Source: a virus
DNA length: 64,000 nucleotides
Reading direction: 5' to 3' (one strand)
IMG/VR virus record: IMGVR_UViG_3300026512_000008
Coordinates: 3,494-67,493 of that record
Shown here: in pieces, positions 5,105 through 63,964 of the stretch
How positions within the stretch are numbered: the first letter of the stretch is position 1
Layout: each line of letters opens with the position of its first letter
Notes under the pieces: generated by a model
The model's input: only the letters and a program-made list of their open reading frames with translations
Databases searched by the model: none
Told to the model about the DNA's origin: nothing
Translations under genes and position numbers: made by a program

Positions 5105-6433
5105 ATGAAAGAAATGAACGAACAAATTTTAGAATTAGTTGAGTCAGAAAAATACGCAGCATTGACTGAAGGTGCAGAAGCATCTTATATGGGTATGATG
5201 TTAGAAAACGCAATGGACGAAGCTGAAAAAGTACTTGCAGAAGGTACAGTTGCATCAGATGTAGCTACATTCACTCCAATCATTATGCCACTTGTAAGAA
5301 GAGTTTATCCAAACCTTATTGCTAATGAACTTTTAGGTGTTCAGCCAATGGCTTTACCAACTGGTTTTATTTACGCACTTACAAACAGATACTTAGGTAA
5401 CAAAAAAGATGGTTCAGTTAGCCCAACTACAAAAGGTCAAATTCTTGTATTTAGCGCAAACACTCCATCAGTAGGTGATACAGTTACAGGTGTTGACGCA
5501 GCAGGCGACGAAGCAACTGCATTAGTAGCTTATGTTGAAGGTAACAAAGTATTAGTTGAAGCAGCAGGTAACTTTTTAGTACCAGCAGGTGATATTTCAG
5601 CAGTATTTACAAATGAATTAGCATTTGGTCAAGTTCTTGTTAATTACACAGGTCCAATGACAACAGCAGAAGCAGAAGTTATCGGCGAAGGTATGAATGA
5701 AGTTGGTTTTGAAATTGCTCGTAAATCAGTTGAAGCAAAATCAAGAGCTCTTAAAGGTAGATATTCAGTAGAAATGTACCAAGATTTAAAATCACAACAC
5801 GGTTTAGCTGCTGATGATGAAATTATGTCATTAATTTCTTACGAAGTACAAGCAGAACTAGATAGAGAAATTGTAAACTTTGTTAACACAAACGCAACTC
5901 CAGTTGCTAACTCTTTTGCACCACAAAATGCAGATGGTAGATGGGAAATTGAAAAATATAGAACAGAAGTTATTAAAATGAAAAAAGAGTCTACTCAAAT
6001 CGGTCTTGATACAAAAAGAGGTCAAGGTAACATTGTTGTTGTTTCTCCAAATGTTGTTACAATGATGGAAGAAGTTGGTTCATTTAAAACTGCTACAAAA
6101 GACAATGGAACTACTCAACCAGTATCTGGTGGTGTTGCAGGAATCTTTGATAACAAATTCAAAGTAGTAGTTGATCAATTCGCTACAACAGACTATGCAA
6201 CAGTTATGTACAAAGGTGCTGATAGAAGAGATTCAATGGGATTCTTTGCTCCATATGTTCCACTTAGTTTCACAAAAGTTACAAACTTTGAAACTGGACA
6301 ACCAGCAATAATTGCTAAAACTAGATACGCTCTAGAAACTATTCCAGGTGTTGAAACTCCTATCAGTAATGATAGAGCAGCTAAATACGCTAGAAACTTT
6401 GGTATTGATTTTACAGGAACTGCACTTCAGTAA
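5105..6433 (+). CDS. gp23: Major capsid protein, T4 gp23-like
   Basis: PLVRRVYPNLIA, GVQPM, AKSRALKG.YSVE..QDLKSQHGL and FFAPYVPL motifs. Confidence 0.97.
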   Translation: MKEMNEQILELVESEKYAALTEGAEASYMGMMLENAMDEAEKVLAEGTVASDVATFTPIIMPLVRRVYPNLIANELLGVQPMALPTGFIYALTNRYLGNKKDGSVSPTTKGQILVFSANTPSVGDTVTGVDAAGDEATALVAYVEGNKVLVEAAGNFLVPAGDISAVFTNELAFGQVLVNYTGPMTTAEAEVIGEGMNEVGFEIARKSVEAKSRALKGRYSVEMYQDLKSQHGLAADDEIMSLISYEVQAELDREIVNFVNTNATPVANSFAPQNADGRWEIEKYRTEVIKMKKESTQIGLDTKRGQGNIVVVSPNVVTMMEEVGSFKTATKDNGTTQPVSGGVAGIFDNKFKVVVDQFATTDYATVMYKGADRRDSMGFFAPYVPLSFTKVTNFETGQPAIIAKTRYALETIPGVETPISNDRAAKYARNFGIDFTGTALQ

Positions 6434-6440
6434 CCAAAAT

Positions 6441-6466
6441 TAATTAAGATCTTCGGATCTTAATTA
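6441..6466 (+). terminator. Hairpin with cUUCGg tetraloop after the capsid gene
   Basis: TAATTAAGATC-TTCG-GATCTTAATTA, perfect 11-bp stem. Confidence 0.75.
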
Positions 6467-6470
6467 TATA

Positions 6471-6492
6471 TTAAGTAAACAAATGTTATAAT
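6471..6492 (+). promoter_or_regulatory. Host-RNAP-type promoter TTAAGTA-N7-GTTATAAT
   Basis: Same motif and spacing recur at 27559, 61965 and 63723. Confidence 0.7.
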
Positions 6493-6582: not shown

Positions 6583-8169
6583 ATGAAACACAAAATAAAT
6601 TACAGATTATTAAAATATCCTCAAACATTCTTTAATACACAAAAATACAAAATATCTGATTATAAAAGATATAAACACCGCTTAATAGCATGGTACTTAT
6701 TACATGAATATTCAAAAGACCATTGTATTCAACATCTTGCTAAATATACTGATTTTCGTAGAGTTATTAATAACGAATTTAATTTTATTAAACAATATAT
6801 TACAAAAATATATAATCTTGATATAAACAATTATACAAAACACAATATTATTAATTGTAAAATATGTAAAGTATGTGCTAAACAATGTAAAACAAATAGA
6901 GATACTTGTTCTAATAAATGTGCAAATACATTAAAAAACACTAAAAATATATCAGATGGTCTTAAGAAATATTACAAAACAGCAGATTGCACGGAAAGAC
7001 ACTCAAAAATTAAAGACTCTATAATTACAATGTACGATAATATGACTCCAGATGAAATTAAGGAAAAATGTGTTAATAAAGAATTAAGATATACTTCTTT
7101 TGATAATTTTGAAAAAAGATTTATTACATTAAAATTAAAATGCAATAAAGACTTTTATTACAATAATAATATTATACCAATAGAATGTGAATGTGGTAAC
7201 AAATTTACAGCACTAAAATCTACTGGTTTTATACCTATATGTAGAGTTTGCACACCAACAGTTAAACATAAAACACAAAACGACATATATACATTTATTA
7301 GAAATATAAGTACAAAACAAATACAAACTGATAATAAAACATTAATAAAACCATTAGAAATTGATATTGTATCAAGTAATTTTGGAATAGAGTATAATGG
7401 TATTTTAACACATTCGTTTGGCAAAACAGATAAAATAAAATGGGCAGATAATTGGGAAAATAAAGATTATAATATACATCTCAGAAAAACTGAAATGTGT
7501 GAATCTATAAATATTCACTTATTTCATATAAACGAATATGAATGGTTAAATCCCATTAAACAAAATATCTGGAAATCTATAATTGCTAATAAAGTAGGTA
7601 TAAATGATAAAATATACGCTAGAAAATGTATAATTAAAGAAATATCGTCGAGTGAGGCTAATAATTTTATAGAAAATAATCATTTACAAGGTATAAGAAA
7701 TGCTAGTATTAAATTAGGATTGTTTTATAATAATGAACTAGTTCAAGTAATGACATTAGGAGTTCCTATGCAACTTAAATATAAAGGGGCGAATCATTAT
7801 GAACTTATTAGATTATGTTCAAAAATAAATACCACAGTTATAGGTGGAGCATCTAAACTTCTTAAGTATTTTGAGAGAAATTATAATCCAAAATTAATTA
7901 TTAGCTATGCTAATCGTAGATGGGCTTACAGTAAAAGTACAGTATATAATAAATTAGGGTTTAAATATATAGGAAAATCAAAACCAAATTATGTAATATG
8001 TCGTCTTAATAATACAAATGTATATTCAAGACAAAAGTTTCAAAAACATAAACTTAAAAATATAATACCAAATTTTAACCCTACTATTTCTGCAATTAAT
8101 AATATTGTAAATAATGGATACAGAATATTTCCAGATTCTGGTAATCTTATATTTACAAAAACTTATTGA
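6583..8169 (+). mobile_element. Free-standing Hef-like homing endonuclease with N-terminal Zn-binding Cys motifs
   Basis: FGIEYNG..THS, HLFHINEYEW, IYARKC.IKEI and FIENNHLQG motifs; CxxC pairs; sits directly after gp23; distinct AT-rich codon usage. Confidence 0.85.
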
Positions 8170-8763: not shown

Positions 8764-10764
8764 ATGGCAGTAGAAGAAGAAATTAAGGAAACCGTACCGT
8801 TTTCGTTTGACGAAATATACGATGGTATAGCAGAATTATTTGAAGAAAAAGGATATGATAGTCCTTATGACGGCTCAAATTTAGCACAACTAATTACATC
8901 AATGGCATATACTACATCTATGCTAAATGCTAATACTGCTATAAACATTAACGAAACTATTTTATCTCTTGCTCAAAAAAGACCAAATATTATTCAAGAT
9001 GCTAGGTTATTAGGGTACGAAGCAACACAAAGAATATCATATGTATATGAAATAGAATTAACATTTACAGAAACAAAAACATATAATATACCTCATAATA
9101 CTAAATTTTTAAGTGGTAGTAATACATATTATTACACAGGTGATGATTTTGATTTTAATGCTAGTGCGGGAGATACTAAAAAGATTTTTGTTAAAGAAGG
9201 CAAACTAACTACTTATATCGAAGAACCAGAAAATCTTAGACAAGTAATTGCTAATCAACAATATTTAGATATTCCTTATGAAAATGTTGAATCTGATGGT
9301 ATCGAAGTATATATTACATATTATCAAGATGATGGTATTTTATCAAACAAAGAAAGATTTTTTAAATCACCAACATTGCTTATTGATGTGGATGATAATC
9401 TTTCGAAGAAATTTGTTAGACTAGAAAATATCGATATGGGTACTCCACGAATACATTTTGTAATTAGTAATGTTGGTAATGAAGTTCCAACAGGCGCAGT
9501 TGTTGAAATGAATGTATTACAATCAAAAGGTCCGGATGGTAGTACAAAAGATGATTTTAGTACAGATATCGAAGGTGTAGAAATTCATAATTATGAGTTA
9601 AGTATTCGTGGTAATAATGTTGAAAGCAACCAATCTATAAAAGATAATGCACCTGTATTACATAATACAGCGTCTAGATGTATTACAGGTAATGATTATG
9701 AAGTTATTTCAAAAAAACATAGTGCGTGTCAAGAAGCATTTGTATTTGGTGGTGAAGACGAGCACCCAATGAAACTAGGTAATATATTTTTAAGTTTAAC
9801 ACCAGAAAAAGCGGATAGATCATTTACACAAAATAATGAAAATACATCATGGTATTTAAATGATTTAGAATTGACAGAAAATAATTACCTATTGAATAGC
9901 GAATGGGAATCTACTGTTATTGATGTAAACGGAAACATTAAAAATCCAGGAGTTTTAGATAATATTAAAGCGTTAAATTTGCCAGCACTTAGATATAATA
10001 GAAGGGACCCTTTGTATATTTTAATAGATTTTAACATATCTATTGTTAAATATGCTTTAAGTTCAGTACATACAGAAGTAAGACAAACTATTTTTAATAT
10101 TTTAAGTGATTATATGAAAAGTTTGGAAACATTTGAAACTGAATTTTTTAAATCAAATGTTATTAAAAAATTAGATTCTTATCTTACAGATATTACAGGG
10201 CTTGAAATGGATGTAAATTTTAGAGTTATGATTGATAAAAATTCTATTAGTAAAGAAACAACACAAGCAATTCAAGGTACAAATATTGTAGATGTTGAGG
10301 AAAATTCAATAGTATTGTATTTAGATACACCATACGAAAACATATATGACGACAATGGTAATATGATTATAGATAATTTACCACAAATTAATACAGAAAA
10401 TTTTATTCCAGGAAAAAATTTAACTGTAGATTTTAGCAATCCATCTGTATTACCGGATACTATTGAAGGAAATACTTTAACAAAAGACAAAGATAGTATA
10501 GAATTTCCTGTTTATTTAGGACCTATCTCGTCTAGAGACAATACTATAAATAAAATAGGAATATATACTATTTTTAATGACAGAACAACTTATATTAGAG
10601 TTAAACTAAATTCGGATAGTTTTGAGAATGAGTTAATAACTGCTAAATTTATAACATTAAAATATCCTAGTCAAAATATGAAAACATTAAGAAGTAGTAT
10701 ATTTAAATTGAATAGTGTGAAAATTGATAATAAAGAAACAAGTCCAGAATATGAGGAAATGTGA
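8764..10764 (+). CDS. gp6: Baseplate wedge subunit, T4 gp6-like
   Basis: YDGSNLAQLI..MAY, ARLLGY and ESNQSIKDNAP...RCITGNDYE motifs. Confidence 0.88.
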   Translation: MAVEEEIKETVPFSFDEIYDGIAELFEEKGYDSPYDGSNLAQLITSMAYTTSMLNANTAININETILSLAQKRPNIIQDARLLGYEATQRISYVYEIELTFTETKTYNIPHNTKFLSGSNTYYYTGDDFDFNASAGDTKKIFVKEGKLTTYIEEPENLRQVIANQQYLDIPYENVESDGIEVYITYYQDDGILSNKERFFKSPTLLIDVDDNLSKKFVRLENIDMGTPRIHFVISNVGNEVPTGAVVEMNVLQSKGPDGSTKDDFSTDIEGVEIHNYELSIRGNNVESNQSIKDNAPVLHNTASRCITGNDYEVISKKHSACQEAFVFGGEDEHPMKLGNIFLSLTPEKADRSFTQNNENTSWYLNDLELTENNYLLNSEWESTVIDVNGNIKNPGVLDNIKALNLPALRYNRRDPLYILIDFNISIVKYALSSVHTEVRQTIFNILSDYMKSLETFETEFFKSNVIKKLDSYLTDITGLEMDVNFRVMIDKNSISKETTQAIQGTNIVDVEENSIVLYLDTPYENIYDDNGNMIIDNLPQINTENFIPGKNLTVDFSNPSVLPDTIEGNTLTKDKDSIEFPVYLGPISSRDNTINKIGIYTIFNDRTTYIRVKLNSDSFENELITAKFITLKYPSQNMKTLRSSIFKLNSVKIDNKETSPEYEEM

Positions 10765-58375: not shown

Positions 58376-59749
58376 ATGAATTTAATTTTAAATAACAATA
58401 TTGTTGAATTTACTAAAAAATATTTTTGGTATTTTATTACGGTTACTTTATTATTAATATTTGTGTTAGGAACTTCTGTTATAACAAGTGTAGATTCACA
58501 TATAAATTATATCAATCATCAAATTAAGCAAAATATTATGGAATATGATGAAATAGATTTATCTCATATTTGTAATTTAAGTGAGTGTACTAAAATATAC
58601 ACGCCTACAGAAACATTTGTTAAAAAAGATTATCTTACTGAAATTAATTACGAAAAACCTAATTTTTTAAAAATAAGTAAAACAGTATATTTAAATAATT
58701 ATCATCTTGTTTTTTATAATGAAGAAGCTAATGTTTACATAGAGAAAATATTTGGTCATCATATATATGATATTATTGTAAATTTAAGTATAATTTTTAT
58801 AATTTTCATTAACATATTTTCTTGGTTTATGTATAAAGCATATAAGCGAGAAAGAAACGAAGCTATGATTACTAATATTGGTAACGAAGCTATTCTTGCT
58901 AATAAATCTATGATTATGATTACAGAAAATGTACACCATGAATTAAATACCCCTATAGATGTAATTGAAAATAAGATTGAAAAAGTACATCGTACCTTAA
59001 ATCAATATATTGTGTCACAAACAGAATGGGCAGAAAAACATAATATGGATAAAAGAGAAACCGTTGAAAGCAGAAAATGGAACCAAAAAATAATTAAATT
59101 AGAAAAGGATTTTGATTTTATTCATACCAGTATAGAACAAATATTATCAGTCCTTAGTAAAATGAAAAACTTTAAAAATCTTAGATATTCAAATGGTGAT
59201 AAATCTGTTTATAATGTTATTGAAGGAGCGTTTCGTATTATATCTGTATCATATTCTAATGTATCATATTATATAGATGATGAATTTAAAAAATATAAAA
59301 TGGGCAAAGACACACTTAAAAATATAGATTTATTAAATGTACTTATTAATCATATTAAAAATTCGTTAGAAGCACAAGCTAGTGAAATTAAAGTTAATAT
59401 GAATCCTAATATTAAAAAGAATATGATGAAATTAGTAATTACTGATAACGGTTCAGGAATTTCAGAAGAAATTAAAAAAAATGTTTTCAATCCTAATTTT
59501 TCTTCAAAACAAATAGGTGATAGTATTCGTGGAAATGGTATGTATTTAAATAAACATATAGTAAAAGAGTTTGGTGGTGATATAAAAATATTACAAACTA
59601 GCACCAAAGGTACGAGTGTTGAAATATCATTTAGGGTTAACATAAAGGAAGATAATAATATTGCTCATAAAATCAATAATAATGAAATTGAAAATGAAAT
59701 TGATAAAATTAGAATCAAAAGTGCTAAAAATAAACAATATAAATACTAA
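58376..59749 (+). CDS. Membrane sensor histidine kinase
   Basis: Two TM segments flanking a periplasmic domain; H-box VHHELNTP, N-box NHIKNSLEA, DNGSGI, FNPNFSSK, RGNGMY. Confidence 0.92.
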   Translation: MNLILNNNIVEFTKKYFWYFITVTLLLIFVLGTSVITSVDSHINYINHQIKQNIMEYDEIDLSHICNLSECTKIYTPTETFVKKDYLTEINYEKPNFLKISKTVYLNNYHLVFYNEEANVYIEKIFGHHIYDIIVNLSIIFIIFINIFSWFMYKAYKRERNEAMITNIGNEAILANKSMIMITENVHHELNTPIDVIENKIEKVHRTLNQYIVSQTEWAEKHNMDKRETVESRKWNQKIIKLEKDFDFIHTSIEQILSVLSKMKNFKNLRYSNGDKSVYNVIEGAFRIISVSYSNVSYYIDDEFKKYKMGKDTLKNIDLLNVLINHIKNSLEAQASEIKVNMNPNIKKNMMKLVITDNGSGISEEIKKNVFNPNFSSKQIGDSIRGNGMYLNKHIVKEFGGDIKILQTSTKGTSVEISFRVNIKEDNNIAHKINNNEIENEIDKIRIKSAKNKQYKY

Positions 59750-59764
59750 AAAGAGAAATTATGT

Positions 59765-60049
59765 ATGAAAAAGGTGTTTTTAACTTTACTATTTGTTGCA
59801 ATAATTATATTACCTGTAGATGCGAAAACATCAGAAATACGCACATATAACTATATGGAAACTTATTTTCACGATAATAATATAAATATTAAAACCAAAA
59901 CTTATAAAGGTTGGATTAGAGTTTTATTGTCTGGTACTAAAAGAAAACAATATCATTTAAATTTGTCAAAAAAACAAATTAATATATATACACACAAATT
60001 AAAAATACTACAAAATAAAAAAATAATATATAAAAATAATAATATATAA
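59765..60049 (+). CDS. Small secreted basic protein
   Basis: Sec signal MKKVFLTLLFVAIIILPVDA; TATAAATA at 59738. Confidence 0.65.
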   Translation: MKKVFLTLLFVAIIILPVDAKTSEIRTYNYMETYFHDNNINIKTKTYKGWIRVLLSGTKRKQYHLNLSKKQINIYTHKLKILQNKKIIYKNNNI

Positions 60050-60107
60050 TATTTTTTAATTAAAAAGTATTTAAGTACAGTTTGTGTAAAATTTTACAAG
60101 TAATTAA

Positions 60108-60304
60108 AATTAAAAATTAATAAAGTTTGTGTTATAATAACAGTAATTAAAAATTAATACTTAAATAATTTTACAATTAATTAAAAATTAATAAAGTTTG
60201 TGTTATAATAACAGTAATTAAAAATTAATACTTAAATAATTTTACAATTAATTAAAAATTAATAAAGTTTGTGTTATAATAACAGTAATTAAAAATTAAT
60301 ACTT
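60108..60304. repeat. 71-bp tandem repeat x about 2.8, each unit with GTGTTATAAT
   Basis: GTTATAAT at 60131, 60202 and 60273. Confidence 0.9.
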
Positions 60305-60334
60305 TGTTTTTAGCTAAGTGTTACAATTTGTTAC

Positions 60335-60510
60335 AAAATAAAAAGAATTTGTAAATTTATACTATTTTAAGTAAAAATTAACACTTTTTTAGTTATAATA
60401 ATATAAATAAAACAATAAAAATAAAAATAAAAAGAATTTGTAAATTTATACTATTTTAAGTAAAAATTAACACTTTTTTAGTTATAATAATATAAATAAA
60501 ACAATAAAAA
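60335..60510. repeat. 89-bp tandem repeat x2 with TTAAG-N6-TTAAC-N11-TATAAT and TATAAATA
   Basis: GTTATAAT at 60392 and 60481. Confidence 0.9.
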
Positions 60511-60525
60511 CAAAAGGAATTTAAA

Positions 60526-60651
60526 ATGTTTACATTAAATATAAAACATATTATTGTTACAAATACGAATAAACAGATTAGTATTCCAACAACTGAACAT
60601 AATGAGAATTATGAACAGTATCAAAATCAAAGAGATACCTTAAAGATTTAA
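60526..60651 (+). CDS. 41-aa leader peptide of tRNA array 1
   Basis: AAGGA RBS; MFTLNIKHIIVTNTNKQISIPTTEHNENYEQYQNQRDTLKI. Confidence 0.7.
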   Translation: MFTLNIKHIIVTNTNKQISIPTTEHNENYEQYQNQRDTLKI

Positions 60652-60691
60652 TTAAAGCGCTTTTAAAAGAGAGTTTTAATTAACTCTTTTT
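60642..60691 (+). promoter_or_regulatory. Attenuator-like alternative hairpins
   Basis: 60648-60658 pairs with 60673-60683 (covers the stop codon), versus 60667-60675 with 60682-60690 ending in a U-run. Confidence 0.6.
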
Positions 60692-60808
60692 GTCTAGCGA
60701 AATTCCTCTAGAACTTGTTCAAGTTCTAAAATTTCCTAAAAACAAAATTAGTTATAATGTTAAAATATACAGAAATGTATAATGTGGTTACTAAGTTATC
60801 CACCATAT

Positions 60809-60883
60809 TGTCTTGTAGCTCAAAGGAAGAGCATTCGGCTGATAACCGGAAGGTTGAGATTTCAAAATTCTCCAAGACAACCA
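60809..60883 (+). tRNA. tRNA-Ile(GAT)
   Basis: Cloverleaf; loop CT-GAT-AA; CCA. Confidence 0.9.
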
Positions 60884-60898
60884 AAAAAAAAAATAAAT

Positions 60899-60975
60899 GC
60901 CGGTTTAGCTCAGATGGTTAGAGCGACTGCCTTGTAAGCAGTAGGCCTGGGGTTCGAATCCTCAAACCGGCACCA
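60899..60975 (+). tRNA. tRNA-Thr(TGT)
   Basis: ACTGC-CTTGTAA-GCAGT; CCA. Confidence 0.95.
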
Positions 60976-60976
60976 T

Positions 60977-61050
60977 GACGCTATAGATTATTGGTAGATC
61001 ACCGTACTTTCAATTCGGTAGGCCGGGGTCAGTACCCGGTAGCGTCACCA
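60977..61050 (+). tRNA. tRNA-Glu(TTC)
   Basis: GACGCTA/TAGCGTC acceptor; loop CT-TTC-AA; atypical T loop. Confidence 0.8.
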
Positions 61051-61053
61051 TTT

Positions 61054-61141
61054 GGATAAGAGGCAACTATTGGTTGGTTGCACCAGACTGTAAATCTGTT
61101 CTCAAAAAGCGTTCGCGGTTCGATTCCGTGCTTATCCACCA
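61054..61141 (+). tRNA. tRNA-Tyr(GTA)
   Basis: Loop CT-GTA-AA; long variable region; CCA. Confidence 0.85.
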
Positions 61142-61146
61142 TATAT

Positions 61147-61220
61147 TGAGGTATAGTATAATGGCATTACATCCGACTTTGACTCGGATAACGGGGGATC
61201 GTTACCTCCTACCTCAACCA
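61147..61220 (+). tRNA. tRNA-Gln(TTG)
   Basis: U1:A72; TCCGA-CTTTGAC-TCGGA; CCA. Confidence 0.9.
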
Positions 61221-61242
61221 TAATAAATGTTAAATATTTTGC

Positions 61243-61315
61243 TCTGCTATAACACAACTGGTAGTGTATCGAGCTGTTAACTCGAAGGTTCCTGGATCGT
61301 ACCCAGGTAGCAGAG
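61243..61315 (+). tRNA. tRNA-Asn(GTT), CCA not encoded
   Basis: TCGAG-CTGTTAA-CTCGA; ends G then CAA. Confidence 0.85.
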
Positions 61316-61364
61316 CAAAGTATTTTCGTAAATATTAAAAATACTAAAAACAAAAGGAAACACT

Positions 61365-61409
61365 ATGAAGAGTGAAAAAATTATAGTCGTTGCTTGGGAG
61401 TTTGATTAA
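61365..61409 (+). CDS. 14-aa leader peptide MKSEKIIVVAWEFD upstream of tRNA-Lys
   Basis: CAAAAGGAAA RBS like the other leaders; 3' half lies within an alternative hairpin. Confidence 0.65.
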   Translation: MKSEKIIVVAWEFD

Positions 61410-61454
61410 CTCTTAGGATGCGACTTAAAATAAAGAACAAATAATTTTTAAGTT

Positions 61455-61532
61455 GCATCCGTGAGTAGAATTGGTTAGTACACTCCGCTTTTAACGGAGA
61501 CTATGTGGGTTCGAGTCCCACCGGATGCACCA
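61455..61532 (+). tRNA. tRNA-Lys(TTT)
   Basis: GCATCCG/CGGATGC; CTCCG-CTTTTAA-CGGAG; CCA. Confidence 0.9.
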
Positions 61533-61536
61533 ATAA

Positions 61537-61629
61537 GCAGGTGTTACTCTAGTTGGTCGACGAGACCGGACTTTTAATCCGGCGTGGATAATATCCCCAT
61601 CGTAGGTTCAAATCCTACCATCTGTACCA
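61537..61629 (+). tRNA. tRNA with TTT (Lys) anticodon and Leu-like long variable arm
   Basis: CCGGA-CTTTTAA-TCCGG; 93 nt; CCA. Confidence 0.8.
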
Positions 61630-61696
61630 AAAAAAAATATATCTAGCATAAAATGTAAGTGAACTTAATAACAGTCACCTATCACTTACATTTTAT

Positions 61697-61771
61697 GGTG
61701 AATATAGTCTAATGGTAAGACGCCAGTCTGTGAAACTGGTTATTCCGGATCATTACCGGATATTCACACCA
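61697..61771 (+). tRNA. tRNA-His(GTG) with G-1 and A73
   Basis: CCAGT-CTGTGAA-ACTGG; CCA. Confidence 0.85.
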
Positions 61772-61777
61772 AAAAAT

Positions 61778-61864
61778 AGTAGCGTGCCTGAGTGGTCCAA
61801 AGGAGCCGGCTGATAACCGGTGACATTTATTGTCTCGTCAGTTCGAATCTGACCGTTACTACCA
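61778..61864 (+). tRNA. tRNA with GAT (Ile) anticodon and long variable arm
   Basis: GCCGG-CTGATAA-CCGGT; GACA/TGTC variable stem; CCA. Confidence 0.8.
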
Positions 61865-61872
61865 AAAAATAT

Positions 61873-61946
61873 GCCGAATTAGTATAATAGAATTATTCTG
61901 CTTTTGTAATGCAGAGACAGGGGAGCGTAACCTCTATTCGGCACCA
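61873..61946 (+). tRNA. tRNA-Thr(TGT), divergent second copy
   Basis: Loop TT-TGT-AA; atypical D and T loops; CCA. Confidence 0.75.
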
Positions 61947-61964
61947 TAAAATTTATAAAAAAAT

Positions 61965-61986
61965 TTAAGTAAATGTTTGTTATAAT
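61965..61986 (+). promoter_or_regulatory. Promoter TTAAGTA-N7-GTTATAAT for tRNA array 2
   Basis: Recurrent motif. Confidence 0.7.
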
Positions 61987-62108
61987 ACAACATAAACAAA
62001 AAAAGGTTAAAAAGAATATACAAATTCTTTTAAGAATATAGTGTTTTTAACACTTTTTATATTTCAAAAATATAAATAAAACAATAAATAAACAAAAAGG
62101 AAATACAG

Positions 62109-62252
62109 ATGTCAAACATATTAAACAACTCATTATCAGTTATGTTACCTGTCGGATCGTTTAGACCTATGGCATCTGTGGCCTTTATACCTGCTATATC
62201 TAGTCTGGATTGTGATTTGGGTATATGGGGAAACTTACCAAGCATTAATTAA
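62109..62252 (+). CDS. 47-aa leader peptide of tRNA array 2
   Basis: AAGGA RBS; MSNILNNSLSVMLPVGSFRPMASVAFIPAISSLDCDLGIWGNLPSIN. Confidence 0.7.
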   Translation: MSNILNNSLSVMLPVGSFRPMASVAFIPAISSLDCDLGIWGNLPSIN

Positions 62253-62300
62253 AACTTTTAAATTCATTTTTAAGAGCTTTAATTAGTTCTTAAAATGTTT
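62246..62300 (+). promoter_or_regulatory. Attenuator-like alternative hairpins
   Basis: 62246-62262 pairs with 62269-62285 (covers the stop codon), versus 62268-62278 with 62285-62295 (TTAATT loop). Confidence 0.6.
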
Positions 62301-62408
62301 CAAAAAGAGTTTTAACTTCGTTTACTTCTTAGAAAGTACAACAAAAACAAAACTTCAAAAACTTTTTACTAACTATAATTTTTATAGAATACTAATGTAT
62401 TCTTAAAT

Positions 62409-62483
62409 GGTCCTATAGCTCAGAGGCAGAGCGTTCCGTTGTCTGCGGAAATGTCGAGATTTCAAAATTCTCTAGGATCGCCA
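62409..62483 (+). tRNA. tRNA-Asp(GTC)
   Basis: TTCCG-TTGTCTG-CGGAA; G73; CCA. Confidence 0.85.
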
Positions 62484-62488
62484 AAAAT

Positions 62489-62584
62489 GGAGACATCAAC
62501 CGAAATTGGTATCGGCCTGGTCTTGAAAACCAGTCATCGGATGAGTAATTCGATGTGTCGGTTCGACCCCGACTGTCTCCTCCA
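62489..62584 (+). tRNA. tRNA-Ser(TGA)
   Basis: CTGGT-CTTGAAA-ACCAG; long variable arm. Confidence 0.9.
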
Positions 62585-62616
62585 GATTTTTGTCAATGAA
62601 GACATAAAAATAATAT

Positions 62617-62691
62617 ATGGGTGTAGGAAAATGGAAATCCGCTACTTTTGGGAAGTAGAGATAGTGAGATCGATACTCACCACCCGTACCA
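62617..62691 (+). tRNA. tRNA-Pro(TGG)
   Basis: CTACT-TTTGGGA-AGTAG; CCA. Confidence 0.85.
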
Positions 62692-62696
62692 TTAAT

Positions 62697-62772
62697 GGAC
62701 AAGTAGCACAATTGGTAGTGCCATCCGCTCATAACGGATAGGTTGCTGGTTCAAATCCAGTCTTGTCCACCA
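62697..62772 (+). tRNA. tRNA-CAT (Ile2 or elongator Met)
   Basis: ATCCG-CTCATAA-CGGAT; paired G1:C72 so not an initiator; C4:G69 favours Ile2. Confidence 0.85.
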
Positions 62773-62787
62773 TTAAGTAAAAATTAT

Positions 62788-62864
62788 GGGGTATAGCTGT
62801 GGGCAGCAGATTTCTTTTGCAAGGAGATTGTTTTAAGTCGGTTCGATTCCGATGTACTCCACCA
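62788..62864 (+). tRNA. tRNA-Ala(TGC), atypical
   Basis: G3:U70; loop TT-TGC-AA; irregular D arm. Confidence 0.7.
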
Positions 62865-62880
62865 TAAAATGTCAAAAAAT

Positions 62881-62955
62881 GGGCTTATAGTATAATTGGG
62901 AATACGCTACCCTTGCAAGGTAGTATTCGGGGTTCAAGTCCCCGTAGGTCCACCA
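62881..62955 (+). tRNA. tRNA-Ala(TGC)
   Basis: G3:U70; CTACC-CTTGCAA-GGTAG. Confidence 0.92.
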
Positions 62956-62974
62956 TAAAGTAAAAAAAATATAT

Positions 62975-63048
62975 GCCCGATTAGTTCAATGGCAGAACAC
63001 TTCGCTTACATCGAAGAGACGAATGATCGATACATTCATTGGGTACCA
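62975..63048 (+). tRNA. tRNA-Val(TAC)
   Basis: CTTCG-CTTACAT-CGAAG; CCA. Confidence 0.88.
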
Positions 63049-63057
63049 AAAATAAAT

Positions 63058-63133
63058 GTTCACTTAGCTAAGATGGTCTAAGCGTCCGGTTGAAGCCCGG
63101 AAGATCCAGGATCGTTACCTGGAGTGAACACCA
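63058..63133 (+). tRNA. tRNA-Phe(GAA)
   Basis: TCCGG-TTGAAGC-CCGGA; CCA. Confidence 0.88.
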
Positions 63134-63155
63134 TTATTACAAATGTTAAAAATAC

Positions 63156-63231
63156 GCGGGTATGACAGAATGACATTATGTGCTAGTCTTCCAAACTAGA
63201 TACCCCGGTTTGATTCCGGGTACCCGCTCCA
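63156..63231 (+). tRNA. tRNA-Gly(TCC)
   Basis: GCGGGTA acceptor, U73; CTAGT-CTTCCAA-ACTAG. Confidence 0.9.
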
Positions 63232-63246
63232 AATAAAGGTAATAAA

Positions 63247-63426
63247 ATGAAAGATGAAATGAACAGGCCAAAAGGTAAGTACACTGAAACTTTTACAAAA
63301 GTTTATAAAGGTGTAACATACACAATGACAGAAACAACTGTTATCGGAAGAGATTCAGAAATTATGAATTTTCAAAGAGAATATAGTCCAGGCATTAAAT
63401 ACCCAATAACATTTGAAGAAATGTAA
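63247..63426 (+). CDS. 59-aa hypothetical protein within the tRNA array
   Basis: AAGGT RBS; MKDEMNRPKGKYTETF...FEEM. Confidence 0.55.
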   Translation: MKDEMNRPKGKYTETFTKVYKGVTYTMTETTVIGRDSEIMNFQREYSPGIKYPITFEEM

Positions 63427-63444
63427 AACACTTAAAAAAAGTAC

Positions 63445-63521
63445 GCTCCTATATGCCAATCGGTAGAGCAGTCCGGCTTAGACCCGGTGCAGTCTCAGTT
63501 CGACTCTGAGTGGGAGTACCA
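63445..63521 (+). tRNA. tRNA-Leu(TAG) with short variable loop
   Basis: CCGG-CTTAGAC-CCGG; 77 nt; CCA. Confidence 0.8.
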
Positions 63522-63534
63522 AAAAATTATAAAA

Positions 63535-63626
63535 GCGGACATGGCGAAGCTGGTTGAAACGCAACGGACTTAAAATCCGTCACAGATAAGTTCACATCGT
63601 AGGTTCAACTCCTACTGTCCGCACCA
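63535..63626 (+). tRNA. tRNA-Leu(TAA)
   Basis: ACGGA-CTTAAAA-TCCGT; long variable region. Confidence 0.9.
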
Positions 63627-63631
63627 AATAT

Positions 63632-63707
63632 AGGTCGTTGGTGTAATTGGTAACATTACGGATTCCAAATCCGTCAGATGCAAGTTCAAATCTTGTGCGA
63701 CCTGCCA
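63632..63707 (+). tRNA. tRNA-Trp(CCA)
   Basis: ACGGA-TTCCAAA-TCCGT; G73. Confidence 0.9.
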
Positions 63708-63722
63708 AAAGTTAATAAGTTT

Positions 63723-63744
63723 TTAAGTAAACTTTAGTTATAAT
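63723..63744 (+). promoter_or_regulatory. Promoter TTAAGTA-N7-GTTATAAT
   Basis: Recurrent motif. Confidence 0.7.
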
Positions 63745-63793
63745 AGTAACATAACAAAAGACACTTTATAAATAAGTGTAATTTTAATAAATA

Positions 63794-63878
63794 TGCCGTC
63801 GTGTATCAACTGGATGATAAACGGTCTTCTAAACCGTAGCGTAAGCTTATGTGGGTTCGAGTCCCTCCGGCGGTACCA
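63794..63878 (+). tRNA. tRNA-Arg(TCT) with extended variable arm
   Basis: ACGGT-CTTCTAA-ACCGT; AGC-GTAA-GCT variable hairpin. Confidence 0.85.
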
Positions 63879-63879
63879 T

Positions 63880-63964
63880 GGAGACGACACCTAAGGTAGG
63901 TAAAGTGATTGCTAATCACTGGCTGGTAACACAGTAGTGGGTTCGATTCTCACCGTCTCCTCCA
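63880..63964 (+). tRNA. tRNA-Ser(GCT)
   Basis: AGTGA-TTGCTAA-TCACT; long variable arm. Confidence 0.88.

What the first reader, a model, noticed from the sequence alone, without database searches (positions are those of the whole stretch)
60642..62315. Homologous mutually exclusive hairpin pairs over both long-leader stop codons
Seen, leader 1: stem TTAATTAAAGC/GTTTTAATTAA (60648-60658/60673-60683, extendable to 60642-60689) contains the TAA stop and excludes the terminator-like AAGAGAGTT-TTAATT-AACTCTTTTT (60667-60691). Seen, leader 62109: TAATTAAAACTTTTAAA/TTTAAGAGCTTTAATTA (62246-62262/62269-62285) contains the stop and excludes TTTTAAGAGCT-TTAATT-AGTTCTTAAAA (62268-62295). Both downstream hairpins share the TTAATT loop and a GAGYT/ARYTC stem. 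Inference: classical 2:3 versus 3:4 logic, where a ribosome at the stop codon allows the downstream hairpin and upstream stalling allows the antiterminator. The second U-tract is poor (ATGTTT) and an extra outer stem is possible (62249-62259/62305-62315), so the output could be pausing or processing rather than intrinsic termination.
Basis: partly seen in the sequence, partly recalled or inferred. Interest (0 to 1): 0.8.

Follow-up and report, generated by a model that had tools for sequence, protein, structure and literature searches.

The report
Ribosome-sensing RNA switches before phage tRNA arrays
Two small translated genes that sit in front of this phage's tRNA gene arrays each end inside an RNA hairpin that competes with a second hairpin, a design kept in related phages and most simply read as a switch that lets ribosome progress decide how much transcription runs on toward the tRNA genes.

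Summary
Every stem lies at the stated coordinates. Both leader stop codons (60649-60651, 62250-62252) lie in the 5' arm of a hairpin that excludes a downstream hairpin with a TTAATT loop.

The design is not chance. Only 19 of 9,921 stop triplets in the window pass my switch test: 3 are these two sites and 8 lie in tRNAs. None of 58 long-ORF stops passes.

Footprint-constrained folding flips both units at the same point, between A-site positions 18 and 24 nt before the stop.

Two related T4-like phage contigs that hold the tRNA region (G006, L194) have the same design at four leader stops, with unrelated stem sequences. One of them, the ORF1 homologue in L194, is a textbook attenuator: a 13-bp terminator plus nine U.

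Leader composition mirrors the following tRNAs in 4 of 6 leaders.

The caveats are serious:
- Unit 2 has no U tract.
- In unit 1 both conformers abut the same U tract.
- A promoter-like site lies between each switch and its tRNAs.
- L194-L2 has a constitutive terminator after its switch.
- There are no RNA data.

This scan has flagged leader-peptide attenuators before phage tRNA arrays on other DNA. My four literature searches found no paper describing this.

Verdict: a real, conserved, translation-sensitive switch. Attenuation is the best reading (about 0.5).

The parts
60108..60320 (+). Three tandem 71-nt repeats, each with an extended -10 promoter-like site (second hexamers end at 60138, 60209, 60280)
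60335..60512 (+). Two tandem 89-nt repeats. Each holds GTTATAAT (60392, 60481) and a T4-type late-promoter-like TATAAATA (60402, 60491). The 3' half is shared with unit 2
60526..60651 (+). Leader ORF1, 41 codons, with a Shine-Dalgarno-like AAAGGAA at 60513. 32 of its 40 residues after Met are amino acids of the tRNAs between this leader and the next
   Evidence: strain variant P0001 keeps the frame
60642..60689 (+). Unit 1 long hairpin with the stop codon in its 5' arm (the 'antiterminator' in the classical reading)
60666..60691 (+). Unit 1 short hairpin with a TTAATT loop. Its 3' arm runs into the U run 60687-60691. It is one of only 3 terminator-like sites at gene ends found by a relaxed scan of the + strand
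60709..60728 (+). Third hairpin in the unit 1 spacer (8 bp, z -4.24). One strain carries G60711A together with C60726T, which keeps the pair
60751..60758 (+). Promoter-like GTTATAAT between the switch and the tRNAs. The same class of site lies at 6485, 27573, 61979 and 63737
60809..61943 (+). tRNA array 1: Ile, Thr, Glu, Tyr, Gln, Asn, then a 14-codon ORF, then Lys, a long-arm tRNA with UUU, His, a long-arm tRNA with GAU, and one more tRNA at 61873-61943
61964..61986 (+). Promoter-like TTTAAGTAAA, 5 nt, GTTATAAT upstream of unit 2
62071..62078 (+). Late-promoter-like TATAAATA of unit 2, inside the 19-nt motif shared with unit 1
62109..62252 (+). Leader ORF2, 47 codons, with a Shine-Dalgarno-like AAAGGAA at 62096. 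35 of its 46 residues after Met are amino acids of the tRNAs that follow
   Evidence: strain variant P0006 keeps the frame through four indels
62246..62285 (+). Unit 2 hairpin with the stop codon in its 5' arm
62268..62295 (+). Unit 2 downstream hairpin, 11 bp with a TTAATT loop and no U tract after it
62305..62315 (+). Second partner for 62249-62259 (the outer stem). It is compatible with the downstream hairpin and stabilises it in every ribosome state
62374..62379 (+). TATAAT between the unit 2 switch and tRNA-Asp, aligned with the unit 1 promoter-like site
62409..63964 (+). tRNA array 2: Asp, Ser, Pro, Met(CAU), Ala, Ala, Val, Phe, a tRNA at 63156-63228 (Gly UCC by my reading of the letters), then a 59-codon ORF, then Leu, Leu, Trp, Arg, Ser. 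The contig ends at 64000

Best explanation
The two hairpin pairs are the switch modules of two paralogous leader cassettes. Each cassette has promoter-like sites including a T4-type late promoter, a Shine-Dalgarno site and a 41- or 47-codon ORF, and each stands in front of one of this T4-like phage's tRNA arrays.

The position of the leading ribosome decides the RNA fold. A ribosome on the last roughly six codons or on the stop codon covers the 5' arm of the long hairpin, so the shorter downstream hairpin forms. A ribosome held up eight or more codons earlier, or no ribosome, lets the long stop-codon hairpin form, which consumes the downstream hairpin.

The most likely output is leader-peptide attenuation. 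With fast decoding the downstream hairpin ends or pauses transcripts coming from the upstream promoters (at the U run 60687-60691 in unit 1). With slow decoding transcription runs on toward the tRNA genes. The arrays would also have a basal supply from their own promoter-like sites.

Shown here: the structures, their exclusivity, their rarity in the window, the footprint dependence in folding, the open reading frames in strains, and the conservation of the design in relatives.

Inferred: that any of this changes transcription, the sign of the effect, and that the variable sensed is the supply of the tRNAs encoded downstream.
For: 1. The structures and their exclusivity are real and rare. 0 of 58 long-ORF stops pass the switch test. 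19 of 9,921 stop triplets pass, and 3 of those are these two sites.

2. Footprint scan. In unit 1 the P(short hairpin) is 0.97, 0.97, 0.95, 0.19, 0.00 and 0.00 for the A-site at stop 0, -6, -12, -18, -24 and -30 nt. In unit 2 (RNA to 62300) it is 0.85, 0.85, 0.85, 0.86, 0.07 and 0.02. Both units flip at the same distance.

3. Paralogues keep the design although the ORF bodies no longer align. The short stem has 4 of 11 pairs changed on both sides, and 21 of 22 cells pair.

4. Strain variants. G60669A (runs X4, X5) turns a G-U pair into A-U in both conformers. T62257C (X5, X6) turns U-G into C-G.

5. The leaders look translated. Shine-Dalgarno spacing is like that of the capsid gene. P0001 has an in-frame gain of 3 codons, and P0006 has four in-frame indels.

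6. Relatives. In G006 (capsid protein 51% identical) and L194 the four long-leader units have the stop codon paired in the free fold. 5 of the 6 units across the three phages pass the switch test with a 50-nt window, and the sixth passes with 70 nt. L194-L1 is the N-terminal homologue of ORF1. Its stop codon sits in a -21.2 kcal/mol hairpin (z -4.76). The alternative is a 13-bp terminator followed by nine U (-13.5 kcal/mol for the 36-nt piece, z -4.24).

7. Leader composition matches the following tRNAs in 4 of 6 leaders: 32/40, 35/46, 32/35 and 35/51 residues (P 1e-4, 1e-4, 1.5e-12, 1e-3). In the window's real proteins only 11 of 16,427 and 50 of 16,079 sliding windows are as extreme.

8. Independent canonical cases exist elsewhere. 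L100/L124 has a 25-codon leader with Thr-Thr-Lys repeats, then an antiterminator/terminator, then three tRNA-Thr and two tRNA-Lys. L091 has a Val/Ala/Gly-rich leader before tRNA-Val, Gly and Ala.

9. Five tandem promoter-like sites plus late-promoter motifs precede a 41-codon ORF.
Against: 1. Unit 2's downstream hairpin is followed by no U tract. The leader-2-type units of G006 and L194 also lack one.

2. In unit 1 the 3' arm of the long hairpin (60668-60689) covers both arms of the short hairpin and ends at the same U run. Both conformers therefore put a hairpin next to U-rich RNA and either could terminate (with my reading of the letters). The sign is taken from the homologue in L194, not shown here.

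3. The short stem of unit 1 has only 2 G-C pairs and fails the tool's terminator rule. One search found 2 sites, both inside tRNAs.

4. With 62305-62315 included, unit 2 keeps the downstream hairpin at P 0.83-0.85 in every state.

5. Promoter-like sites lie between switch and tRNAs here (60751, 62374) and in L194-L1, so the arrays need not depend on read-through.

6. In L194-L2 a separate terminator with eight U forms in all states (P 0.84-0.99), so that switch does not gate it.

7. The composition mirror fails in 2 of 6 leaders (G006-A P 0.22, L194-L1 P 0.48). ORF2 still has 10 Ile/Asn residues. The 59-codon ORF before tRNA-Leu, Leu and Trp has no Leu and no Trp.

8. TTAATTAA is a palindrome, so two copies pair with each other automatically. 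The capsid gene's 3' hairpin (6440-6466) uses the same motif.

9. No pause or 1:2 hairpin was found.
Confidence: 0.5

Rival explanations
1. Insulator cassettes of the PeSL kind. The hairpins are the ordinary 3'-end terminators or stabilisers of two small late genes, followed by a promoter that restarts transcription for the tRNAs. The alternative pairing would be a by-product of repeated palindromes, or a way to have a hairpin next to the U run whatever the ribosome does. Translation would not regulate anything.
For: The flanks of the two units are conserved while the ORF bodies are unrelated, as described for PeSL cassettes that flank ORFans in T4-type phages (PMC2839356, passages read; PMC4122927, abstract read). 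A terminator-then-promoter order is seen here and in L194-L1. In unit 1 both conformers end at the same U run. The capsid gene has a TTAATTAA-armed 3' hairpin without a U tract. L194-L2 has its own constitutive terminator. One strain shows replaced segments in this region, as in hyperplastic regions.
Against: None of the 58 other ORF stops has such a pair. The stop codon is paired in all 6 leader units of three phages, with unrelated stems. L194-L1 leaves region 4 and its nine U free in the alternative fold, which is the attenuator arrangement. Composition mirrors the arrays in 4 of 6 leaders. In PeSLs the stem-loop lies within the promoter, between -35 and -10 or over -10. Here it lies about 60 nt upstream.
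Confidence: 0.22
2. A processing or decay switch. The long stop-codon hairpin (about 18-20 bp in unit 1, unit 2, L194-L1 and L194-L2) is a double-strand RNase (RNase III type) site that forms only when no ribosome covers it. It would cut untranslated leader RNA away from the tRNA precursor. The short hairpin would be a 3' or 5' protective end.
For: Four of the six downstream hairpins lack a U tract. The nested two-stem fold of unit 2 with an internal loop resembles phage RNase III sites as I recall them (recalled, no call). tRNA arrays need processing in any case.
Against: No cleavage data exist and no model of such sites was tested. L194-L1 and unit 1 do have U runs after the short hairpin. 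Rfam gives no match except a below-threshold K10_TLS hit at 62242-62289 (26.7 bits, cut-off 43).
Confidence: 0.13
3. DNA-level sites. The paired palindromes (TTAATTAA twice per unit, 28 and about 33 bp apart) would be operators for a dimeric DNA-binding protein or recombination sites, and the RNA folds would be incidental.
For: TTAATTAA also lies just upstream of the tandem promoter repeats (60056, 60177, 60248). The motif matches its own reverse complement at both stop codons.
Against: TTAATTAA is not enriched in the window: 14 found, 20 expected. The stems tolerate G-U pairs, which strains convert to Watson-Crick pairs. Relatives keep the RNA design with quite different sequences and no TTAATTAA. 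The spacing differs between the units.
Confidence: 0.05

Closest known systems
Leader-peptide transcription attenuators of amino-acid operons (trp, his, leu, thr, ilvGMEDA of enterobacteria; textbook knowledge, recalled)
   Same: A short translated leader. A stop codon placed so that a terminating ribosome blocks one hairpin and allows the next. Mutually exclusive 2:3 and 3:4 pairings. Leaders enriched in the relevant codons, multivalent as in ilv and thr.
   Different: The genes downstream are tRNAs, not biosynthetic enzymes. The leaders are long (41-47 codons) and have no tandem runs. There is no 1:2 pause hairpin. The stems are AU-rich. Unit 2 has no U tract. In unit 1 the first hairpin covers both arms of the second. 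A promoter-like site lies between switch and genes.
Leader-peptide attenuators before phage tRNA arrays, as flagged repeatedly by this scan on other DNA and found independently here in L100/L124, L091 and L194-L1
   Same: Promoter, Shine-Dalgarno site, mini-ORF made of the amino acids of the next tRNAs, then a switchable hairpin, then the tRNA block. The free RNA folds into the form that removes the terminator.
   Different: Those cases have G+C-rich terminators with long U runs directly before the first tRNA (8 nt in L100). Here the stems are AU-rich palindromes, the spacer is about 115 nt with a promoter-like site, and the output of unit 2 is unclear.
PeSL (promoter-early stem-loop) cassettes of T4-type phages (PMC2839356; PMC4122927)
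   Same: The phage is T4-like. Conserved composite promoter and stem-loop cassettes flank small unrelated ORFs in a variable region, and the stem-loop acts as a terminator or attenuator for upstream transcription.
   Different: In PeSLs the stem-loop sits inside the promoter, is often polyG/polyC, and recurs many times per genome. No link to translation or to tRNA genes is described. Here there are two copies, the stop codon is embedded in the stem, and there is a second competing hairpin.
Stress-induced tRNA operon of Anabaena (PMC8421152; PMC10272220)
   Same: An extra tRNA array whose expression rises when translation is impaired (abstracts).
   Different: Control there is by a transcriptional repressor (abstract of PMC10272220). 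The words attenuat, leader and terminator do not occur in PMC8421152; attenuat, leader peptide, small ORF and ribosome stalling do not occur in PMC10272220.
T-box riboswitches (recalled)
   Same: They read tRNA status and choose between a terminator and an antiterminator.
   Different: T-boxes bind uncharged tRNA directly and control synthetase and amino-acid genes. No T-box or any other Rfam family except tRNA matches here.

Membership tests
Leader-peptide transcription attenuator | Short ORF with a ribosome-binding site in the 5' part of the transcript, kept open in relatives | tested here: met
   AAAGGAA lies 7 nt before each ATG. Strain variants P0001 and P0006 change length only in whole codons. 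Homologous ORFs exist in G006 and L194.
Leader-peptide transcription attenuator | Two mutually exclusive hairpins, the choice set by ribosome position at or before the stop codon | tested here: met
   Constrained folding flips both units between A-site positions -18 and -24 nt. The design is rare in the window and is kept in 6 of 6 leader units of three phages.
Leader-peptide transcription attenuator | The second hairpin is an intrinsic terminator (stable stem followed by a U tract) before the regulated genes | tested here: inconclusive
Unit 2 has no U tract. The homologue L194-L1 meets the feature fully.
Leader-peptide transcription attenuator | The first hairpin leaves the terminator's 3' arm and U tract unpaired (true antitermination) | tested here: not met
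   In unit 1 the long hairpin pairs 60668-60689, that is both arms of the short hairpin up to the U run. In unit 2 the extended form reaches 62291. The feature is met in L194-L1, L194-L2 and G006-B.
Leader-peptide transcription attenuator | Leader enriched in codons whose decoding is being sensed | tested here: met
   32 of 40 and 35 of 46 residues (P about 1e-4 each). Strict-wobble codon match is 29 of 40 and 25 of 46. There are no tandem runs. 2 of the 6 leaders in the clade show no enrichment.
Leader-peptide transcription attenuator | Regulated genes depend on read-through (no promoter in between) | tested here: inconclusive
   Promoter-like GTTATAAT at 60751 and TATAAT at 62374 lie in between. 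Their activity is unknown.
Leader-peptide transcription attenuator | Termination and read-through respond to translation in vivo or in vitro | not testable with these tools
   No listed run that holds the stretch is on record as RNA.
PeSL cassette (T4-type phages) | Composite of a sigma-70-type promoter with a stem-loop inside or over it, repeated in intergenic regions that flank ORFans | tested here: inconclusive
   Conserved flanks with unrelated ORFs and a terminator-then-promoter order fit. The hairpin pair lies about 60 nt upstream of the -10 site, not within the promoter, and the cassette occurs twice only. Definition taken.
Rfam cis-regulatory families | Score at or above the family's gathering threshold | tested here: not met
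   Only tRNA reaches its threshold. K10_TLS at 62242-62289 scores 26.7 bits against a cut-off of 43.

The most novel reading that the evidence does not exclude
The switches are the read-out of a two-channel tRNA-supply homeostat that a clade of AT-rich T4-like phages carries. The genetic code is split between two arrays. Each array is fronted by a late-promoter-driven leader written in its own amino acids, and perhaps in its own synonymous codons: leader 1 uses AAT 6 of 6 and ATT 5 of 6, leader 2 uses AAC 4 of 5 and ATA 4 of 5. Ribosome transit time through each leader would set how much late transcription runs on into that array. This would also make the phage compensate automatically when a host defence cuts particular tRNAs.
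Probability: 0.3. Interest if true: 0.85.

Novelty: new variant of a known kind. Interest (0 to 1): 0.62.

Why it matters
Why phages carry tRNA genes, and how they time and dose them, is still argued. Proposals include codon-usage matching, late-gene translation and escape from host tRNA-cutting defences. A ribosome-operated switch in front of each tRNA array would be a direct feedback from decoding speed to tRNA production. That logic is known for amino-acid operons. My searches found no paper describing it for tRNA genes.

This locus adds two things to the cases the scan already holds. First, the design is conserved across a clade of T4-like phages while the stem sequences turn over completely. 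Second, the clade spans a textbook form (L194-L1) and U-tract-less forms (unit 2, G006-B). That span makes the question of output (termination, pausing or processing) testable with a few constructs.

Tried and rejected
Leads that gave nothing:
- A search for close relatives of the leader DNA. blastn of 59700-63800 against GenBank phages hit only tRNAs.
- The histidine kinase next door has no relative in viral contigs.
- A pattern made from the two hairpin pairs hit one unrelated locus without tRNAs.
- blastn of the leader regions against 176 stored loci gave 5 low-complexity hits.
- Scans of metagenome contigs with the ORF1 and ORF2 alignments confirmed no relative.
- The ORF2 scan of viral contigs gave one locus (L158), where an 18-residue stretch at the end of a long protein resembles ORF2. 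I treat this as chance or a remnant.
- Of 28 capsid-related records I searched 5 with the region's DNA (only promoter and 5'-UTR motifs matched) and 15 for tRNAs. 2 of the 15 had any tRNA, and only G006 had arrays.
- ORF1 has no longer relatives. ORF2's long hits are repeat proteins.
- ORF1, ORF2 and the 59-codon ORF match no Pfam or PHROG family at a meaningful level.

RNA evidence: no RNA holder is listed. I laid 4 of the 9 listed runs, all of them contigs. 45 differences and 38 indels were not shown to me, so the strain comparison is partial.

Ideas rejected:
- A relay in L194-L2 in which the switch would free a partner for the downstream terminator. That terminator forms in every state.
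- My first reading of G006-A as a reversed switch. By homology its first hairpin is the 2:3 form, but it is followed by five U, so its logic stays open.

Error corrected: I mis-registered the pairs of the unit 1 short hairpin, which gave a false P of 0.00. One search corrects it.

Not seen: the supplements of the PeSL papers (figure S1, table S1) may bear on how PeSL stem-loops are defined. The papers were read as follows: PMC2839356 passages, PMC4122927 abstract and outline, PMC8421152 and PMC10272220 search listing plus word counts only.

Full report
**What is there.** The window is the last 64 kb of a 67.5-kb viral contig. The phage is T4-like: it has a gp23-type capsid protein at 5105-6433. 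G+C content is 22-37% across 2-kb windows.
- In unit 1 the stop codon 60649-60651 lies in the 5' arm of a long hairpin, 60642-60689 (-13.9 kcal/mol, z -3.85). That hairpin consumes a shorter hairpin, 60666-60691 (-7.6 kcal/mol for 60667-60695, z -2.56), whose 3' arm runs into five U.
- In unit 2 the stop codon 62250-62252 lies in hairpin 62246-62285 (-9.4 kcal/mol, z -5.24). That hairpin excludes 62268-62295 (-10.2 kcal/mol, z -5.28).
- The outer stem 62249-62259/62305-62315 is in the minimum-energy fold of the larger piece.
- Both short hairpins have the TTAATT loop. Aligned on it, 21 of 22 cells pair and 4 of 11 pairs differ on both sides between the units. With two sequences this control is weak (34 of 500 shuffles as high).

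**Context.** The two units are paralogous cassettes with 77% mean column identity over 494 columns, but the ORF bodies do not align.

Each cassette contains, in order:
- a 19-nt motif that holds the T4-type late-promoter word TATAAATA (3 copies in the window against 0.28 expected);
- a Shine-Dalgarno site placed as in the capsid gene;
- a 41- or 47-codon ORF;
- the hairpin pair;
- a spacer of about 115 nt with a promoter-like site (GTTATAAT at 60751; TATAAT at 62374);
- a tRNA array.

TATAAATA occurs 38 times on the coding strand and 3 times on the other. Unit 1 is also preceded by three 71-nt and two 89-nt tandem repeats, each with a promoter-like site.

**More than chance.** I scored every stop with one test. 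A site passes if at least 8 downstream bases pair into a 30-nt ribosome footprint in the free fold and pair downstream when the footprint is blocked, with free energy at most -9 and blocked energy at most -7.5 kcal/mol.
- None of the 58 stops of ORFs of at least 100 aa passes.
- Of all 9,921 stop triplets on both strands, 19 pass. Three are the two leader stops (62246 and 62250 both count), 8 lie in tRNA genes and 8 lie inside ORFs.
- Most gene ends in this phage have no strong hairpin at all.

With a footprint moved along the leader:
- Unit 1 gives P(short hairpin) 0.97, 0.97, 0.95, 0.19, 0.00 and 0.00 for the A-site at stop 0, -6, -12, -18, -24 and -30 nt. The long hairpin takes over at -24 nt (P 0.99).
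- Unit 2, with RNA ending at 62300, gives 0.85, 0.85, 0.85, 0.86, 0.07 and 0.02.
- Both units flip at the same distance from the stop.
- With 62305-62315 added, unit 2 keeps the short hairpin (0.83-0.85) in every state. Any switch there must act while the polymerase is still close.

**Are the leaders translated, and are they kept?**
- A JGI variant of ORF1 (P0001, 44 aa) differs by one substitution and an in-frame gain of three codons.
- A variant of ORF2 (P0006, 53 aa) comes from the 9,721-nt contig that read laying showed as the main strain of run X2. It differs by four indels, all in whole codons.
- Base changes seen in strains at the stems turn wobble pairs into Watson-Crick pairs: G60669A in X4 and X5, and T62257C in X5 and X6. 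Each change fits both alternative partners, so they support structure but do not choose between the folds.
- In X2 the stretch 62180-62406 did not align and 816 other letters stand there. Part of that is the diverged end of ORF2. I could not see the rest.

**Relatives.**
- Of 15 capsid-related records searched for tRNAs, only G006 (capsid protein 51% identical) has arrays.
- A 19-nt motif shared by the window and G006, in front of the small ORF that precedes tRNA-Lys, fished out a second relative, L194. It was 1 of 10 hits. Eight hits were unrelated and one was G006 again.
- Both relatives have the same promoter words, late-promoter words and long leaders before tRNA blocks.
- Their ORFs are homologous to ORF1 (L194-L1, 12 invariant columns; G006-A by eye) and, weakly, to ORF2 (L194-L2, G006-B).
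- In all four units the stop codon is paired in the free fold, and blocking the footprint gives another hairpin that reuses the 3' arm.
- Across the three phages 5 of 6 units pass my test with a 50-nt window. G006-A passes with 70 nt.
- The stem sequences are unrelated to those of the window.
- L194-L1 is a textbook attenuator. Its stop codon lies in a -21.2 kcal/mol hairpin (z -4.76) that uses only the 5' arm of a 13-bp terminator followed by nine U (the 36-nt piece folds at -13.5 kcal/mol, z -4.24).

**Mirror of the arrays.** Counted after the initiator Met, and against the tRNAs up to the next long leader:

| Leader | Matching residues | P |
|---|---|---|
| ORF1 | 32 of 40 | 1e-4 |
| ORF2 | 35 of 46 | 1e-4 |
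| G006-B | 32 of 35 | 1.5e-12 |
| L194-L2 | 35 of 51 | 1e-3 |
| G006-A | 19 of 41 | 0.22 |
| L194-L1 | 26 of 39 | 0.48 |

- In the window's real proteins, 11 of 16,427 and 50 of 16,079 sliding windows are as extreme as ORF1 and ORF2.
- At codon level ORF2 uses AAC for 4 of 5 Asn where the genome uses it 17% of the time (P 0.003), and ATA for 4 of 5 Ile. ORF1 uses AAT 6 of 6 and ATT 5 of 6.
- If the CAU tRNA of array 2 reads ATA, as I recall for T4, those Ile codons would belong to array 2 as well. I did not test this.
- Against the mirror: the 59-codon ORF before tRNA-Leu, Leu and Trp has no Leu and no Trp.

**The wider class.**
- A T-arm pattern taken from the first tRNA of each array hit 67 viral contigs. 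Together this gave 125 loci with tRNAs.
- A blind screen of these loci for ORFs with a Shine-Dalgarno site just upstream of tRNA blocks gave 33 distinct pairs. Their mean z for matching their own block was 0.95, against 0.16 (sd 0.23) when ORFs and blocks were re-paired. Only 1 of 2,000 re-pairings reached the observed value.
- The top cases are canonical. L100/L124 has a 25-codon leader with Thr-Thr-Lys repeats, an antiterminator and terminator with seven U, then three tRNA-Thr and two tRNA-Lys. L091 has a Val/Ala/Gly-rich leader before tRNA-Val, Gly and Ala.
- After I had these, the scan's notebook showed that the same class has been reported many times on other DNA.
- None of my searches for such control of tRNA genes turned up a paper describing it: searches returned 12 and 1 papers, none about tRNA-gene control by listing or abstract, and one search returned none. 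The nearest in print, the Anabaena tRNA operon, is controlled by a repressor (abstract of PMC10272220), and the two papers do not contain the attenuation and leader-ORF words I searched in each.

**What speaks against the attenuator reading here.**
- Unit 2 has no U tract, and neither do G006-A, G006-B and L194-L2.
- L194-L2 has a separate terminator with eight U that forms in every state.
- In unit 1 the 3' arm of the long hairpin covers both arms of the short one and ends at the same U run. Both folds therefore place a hairpin beside U-rich RNA, and the long one is the stronger. I take the sign of the switch from L194-L1, not from this sequence.
- The short stem has two G-C pairs and fails the standard rule. 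By a relaxed rule it is still one of only three terminator-like sites at gene ends on this strand.
- Promoter-like sites between switch and tRNAs are conserved.
- Two copies of a palindrome pair with each other automatically, and the capsid gene's own 3' hairpin is built on TTAATTAA.

**Rivals.**
- PeSL-type insulator cassettes (0.22).
- A double-strand RNase processing or decay switch (0.13).
- DNA-level palindromic sites (0.05).

The conservation of a stop-codon-embedded pair of competing hairpins in six units with unrelated stems is hard to explain by any reading in which translation plays no part.

**Verdict.** The pairs are real, rare, footprint-dependent and conserved in design across a clade of AT-rich T4-like phages. 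I commit to a translation-sensitive switch that gates or marks transcripts running from the leader promoters toward the tRNA arrays. Leader-peptide attenuation in the classical sense is the most likely mechanism (0.5), but the output of unit 2, and the sign in unit 1, remain to be shown.

Noticed in passing
L194 (stored strand -): 7690-7873, and 2219-2450: A related phage contig carries a textbook leader-peptide attenuator in front of its tRNAs. The stop codon lies in a -21 kcal/mol hairpin, and the alternative is a 13-bp terminator with nine U. It also carries a second ORF2-like leader with a switch, followed by a separate terminator.
   Followed up: yes
L187 = G006:C1:66000-79663 (stored strand -): 9554-9661: A 36-codon leader in which 32 of the 35 residues after Met are Thr, Ile, Glu, Ala, Phe or Pro. 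These are exactly the amino acids of the nine tRNAs that follow. Its switch has a 15-bp second hairpin without a U tract.
   Followed up: yes
L100 5150-5400 (-), L124, L091 7920-8200 (+), L098: Unrelated phage contigs with canonical leader-peptide attenuators directly before tRNA blocks of matching amino acids (Thr/Lys; Val/Gly/Ala).
   Followed up: partly
window 60857-60873 and 62457-62473; 67 viral contigs: The first tRNA of each array shares a D arm and an unusual T arm (a 4-bp stem plus a T-T mismatch by my reading). The same scaffold occurs in 67 viral contigs with many different anticodons, including Val, Lys, Ile, Gly, Asn, Met, Pro, Thr, His and Ala.
   Followed up: partly
window 61537-61629 and 61778-61864: Long-variable-arm tRNAs with Lys (UUU) and Ile (GAU) anticodons. 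The second is precisely absent from the main strain of run X2, which skips 94 bases between 61770 and 61865.
   Followed up: partly
window 61365-61460; also G006 and L194: A 14-codon ORF with a strongly conserved 5' region (a 19-nt identity across three phages), followed by a 15-bp hairpin whose 3' arm runs into the first bases of tRNA-Lys. Relatives keep an ORF of 10-11 codons and a 12-bp or longer hairpin there.
   Followed up: partly
window 61649-61699: A 16-bp perfect hairpin that ends at the 5' end of tRNA-His.
   Followed up: no
window 60709-60728: A hairpin in the spacer after unit 1, with a compensatory double change (G60711A with C60726T) in the main strain of run X2.
   Followed up: partly
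window 60795-60805: The letters just before tRNA-Ile look like the 3' end of a lost tRNA (they end in CCACCA, like the end of tRNA-Tyr at 61132-61141). In run X2, 182 other letters replace 60765-60790, perhaps an intact gene.
   Followed up: no
window 61873-61943 and 63156-63228: Two tRNAs found by Rfam (44 and 55.3 bits) but not by ARAGORN. The second reads as Gly (UCC).
   Followed up: partly
window 63247-63426: A 59-codon ORF between tRNA blocks has no Leu and no Trp, although tRNA-Leu, Leu and Trp follow it.
   Followed up: partly
window 6440-6466: The 3' hairpin of the capsid gene has 11-bp arms built on TTAATTAA and a TTCG loop, with no U tract. It is followed by a promoter-like site of the TTAAGTAAA/GTTATAAT class.
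   Followed up: no
window 58376-59749: A phage-encoded histidine kinase (HATPase_c, E 1e-13) just upstream of the tRNA region. It has no relative in viral contigs.
   Followed up: no
L158 9960-10060: The C-terminus of a long protein in an unrelated viral contig shares an 18-residue stretch (67% identity) with ORF2, followed by its own terminator.
   Followed up: no
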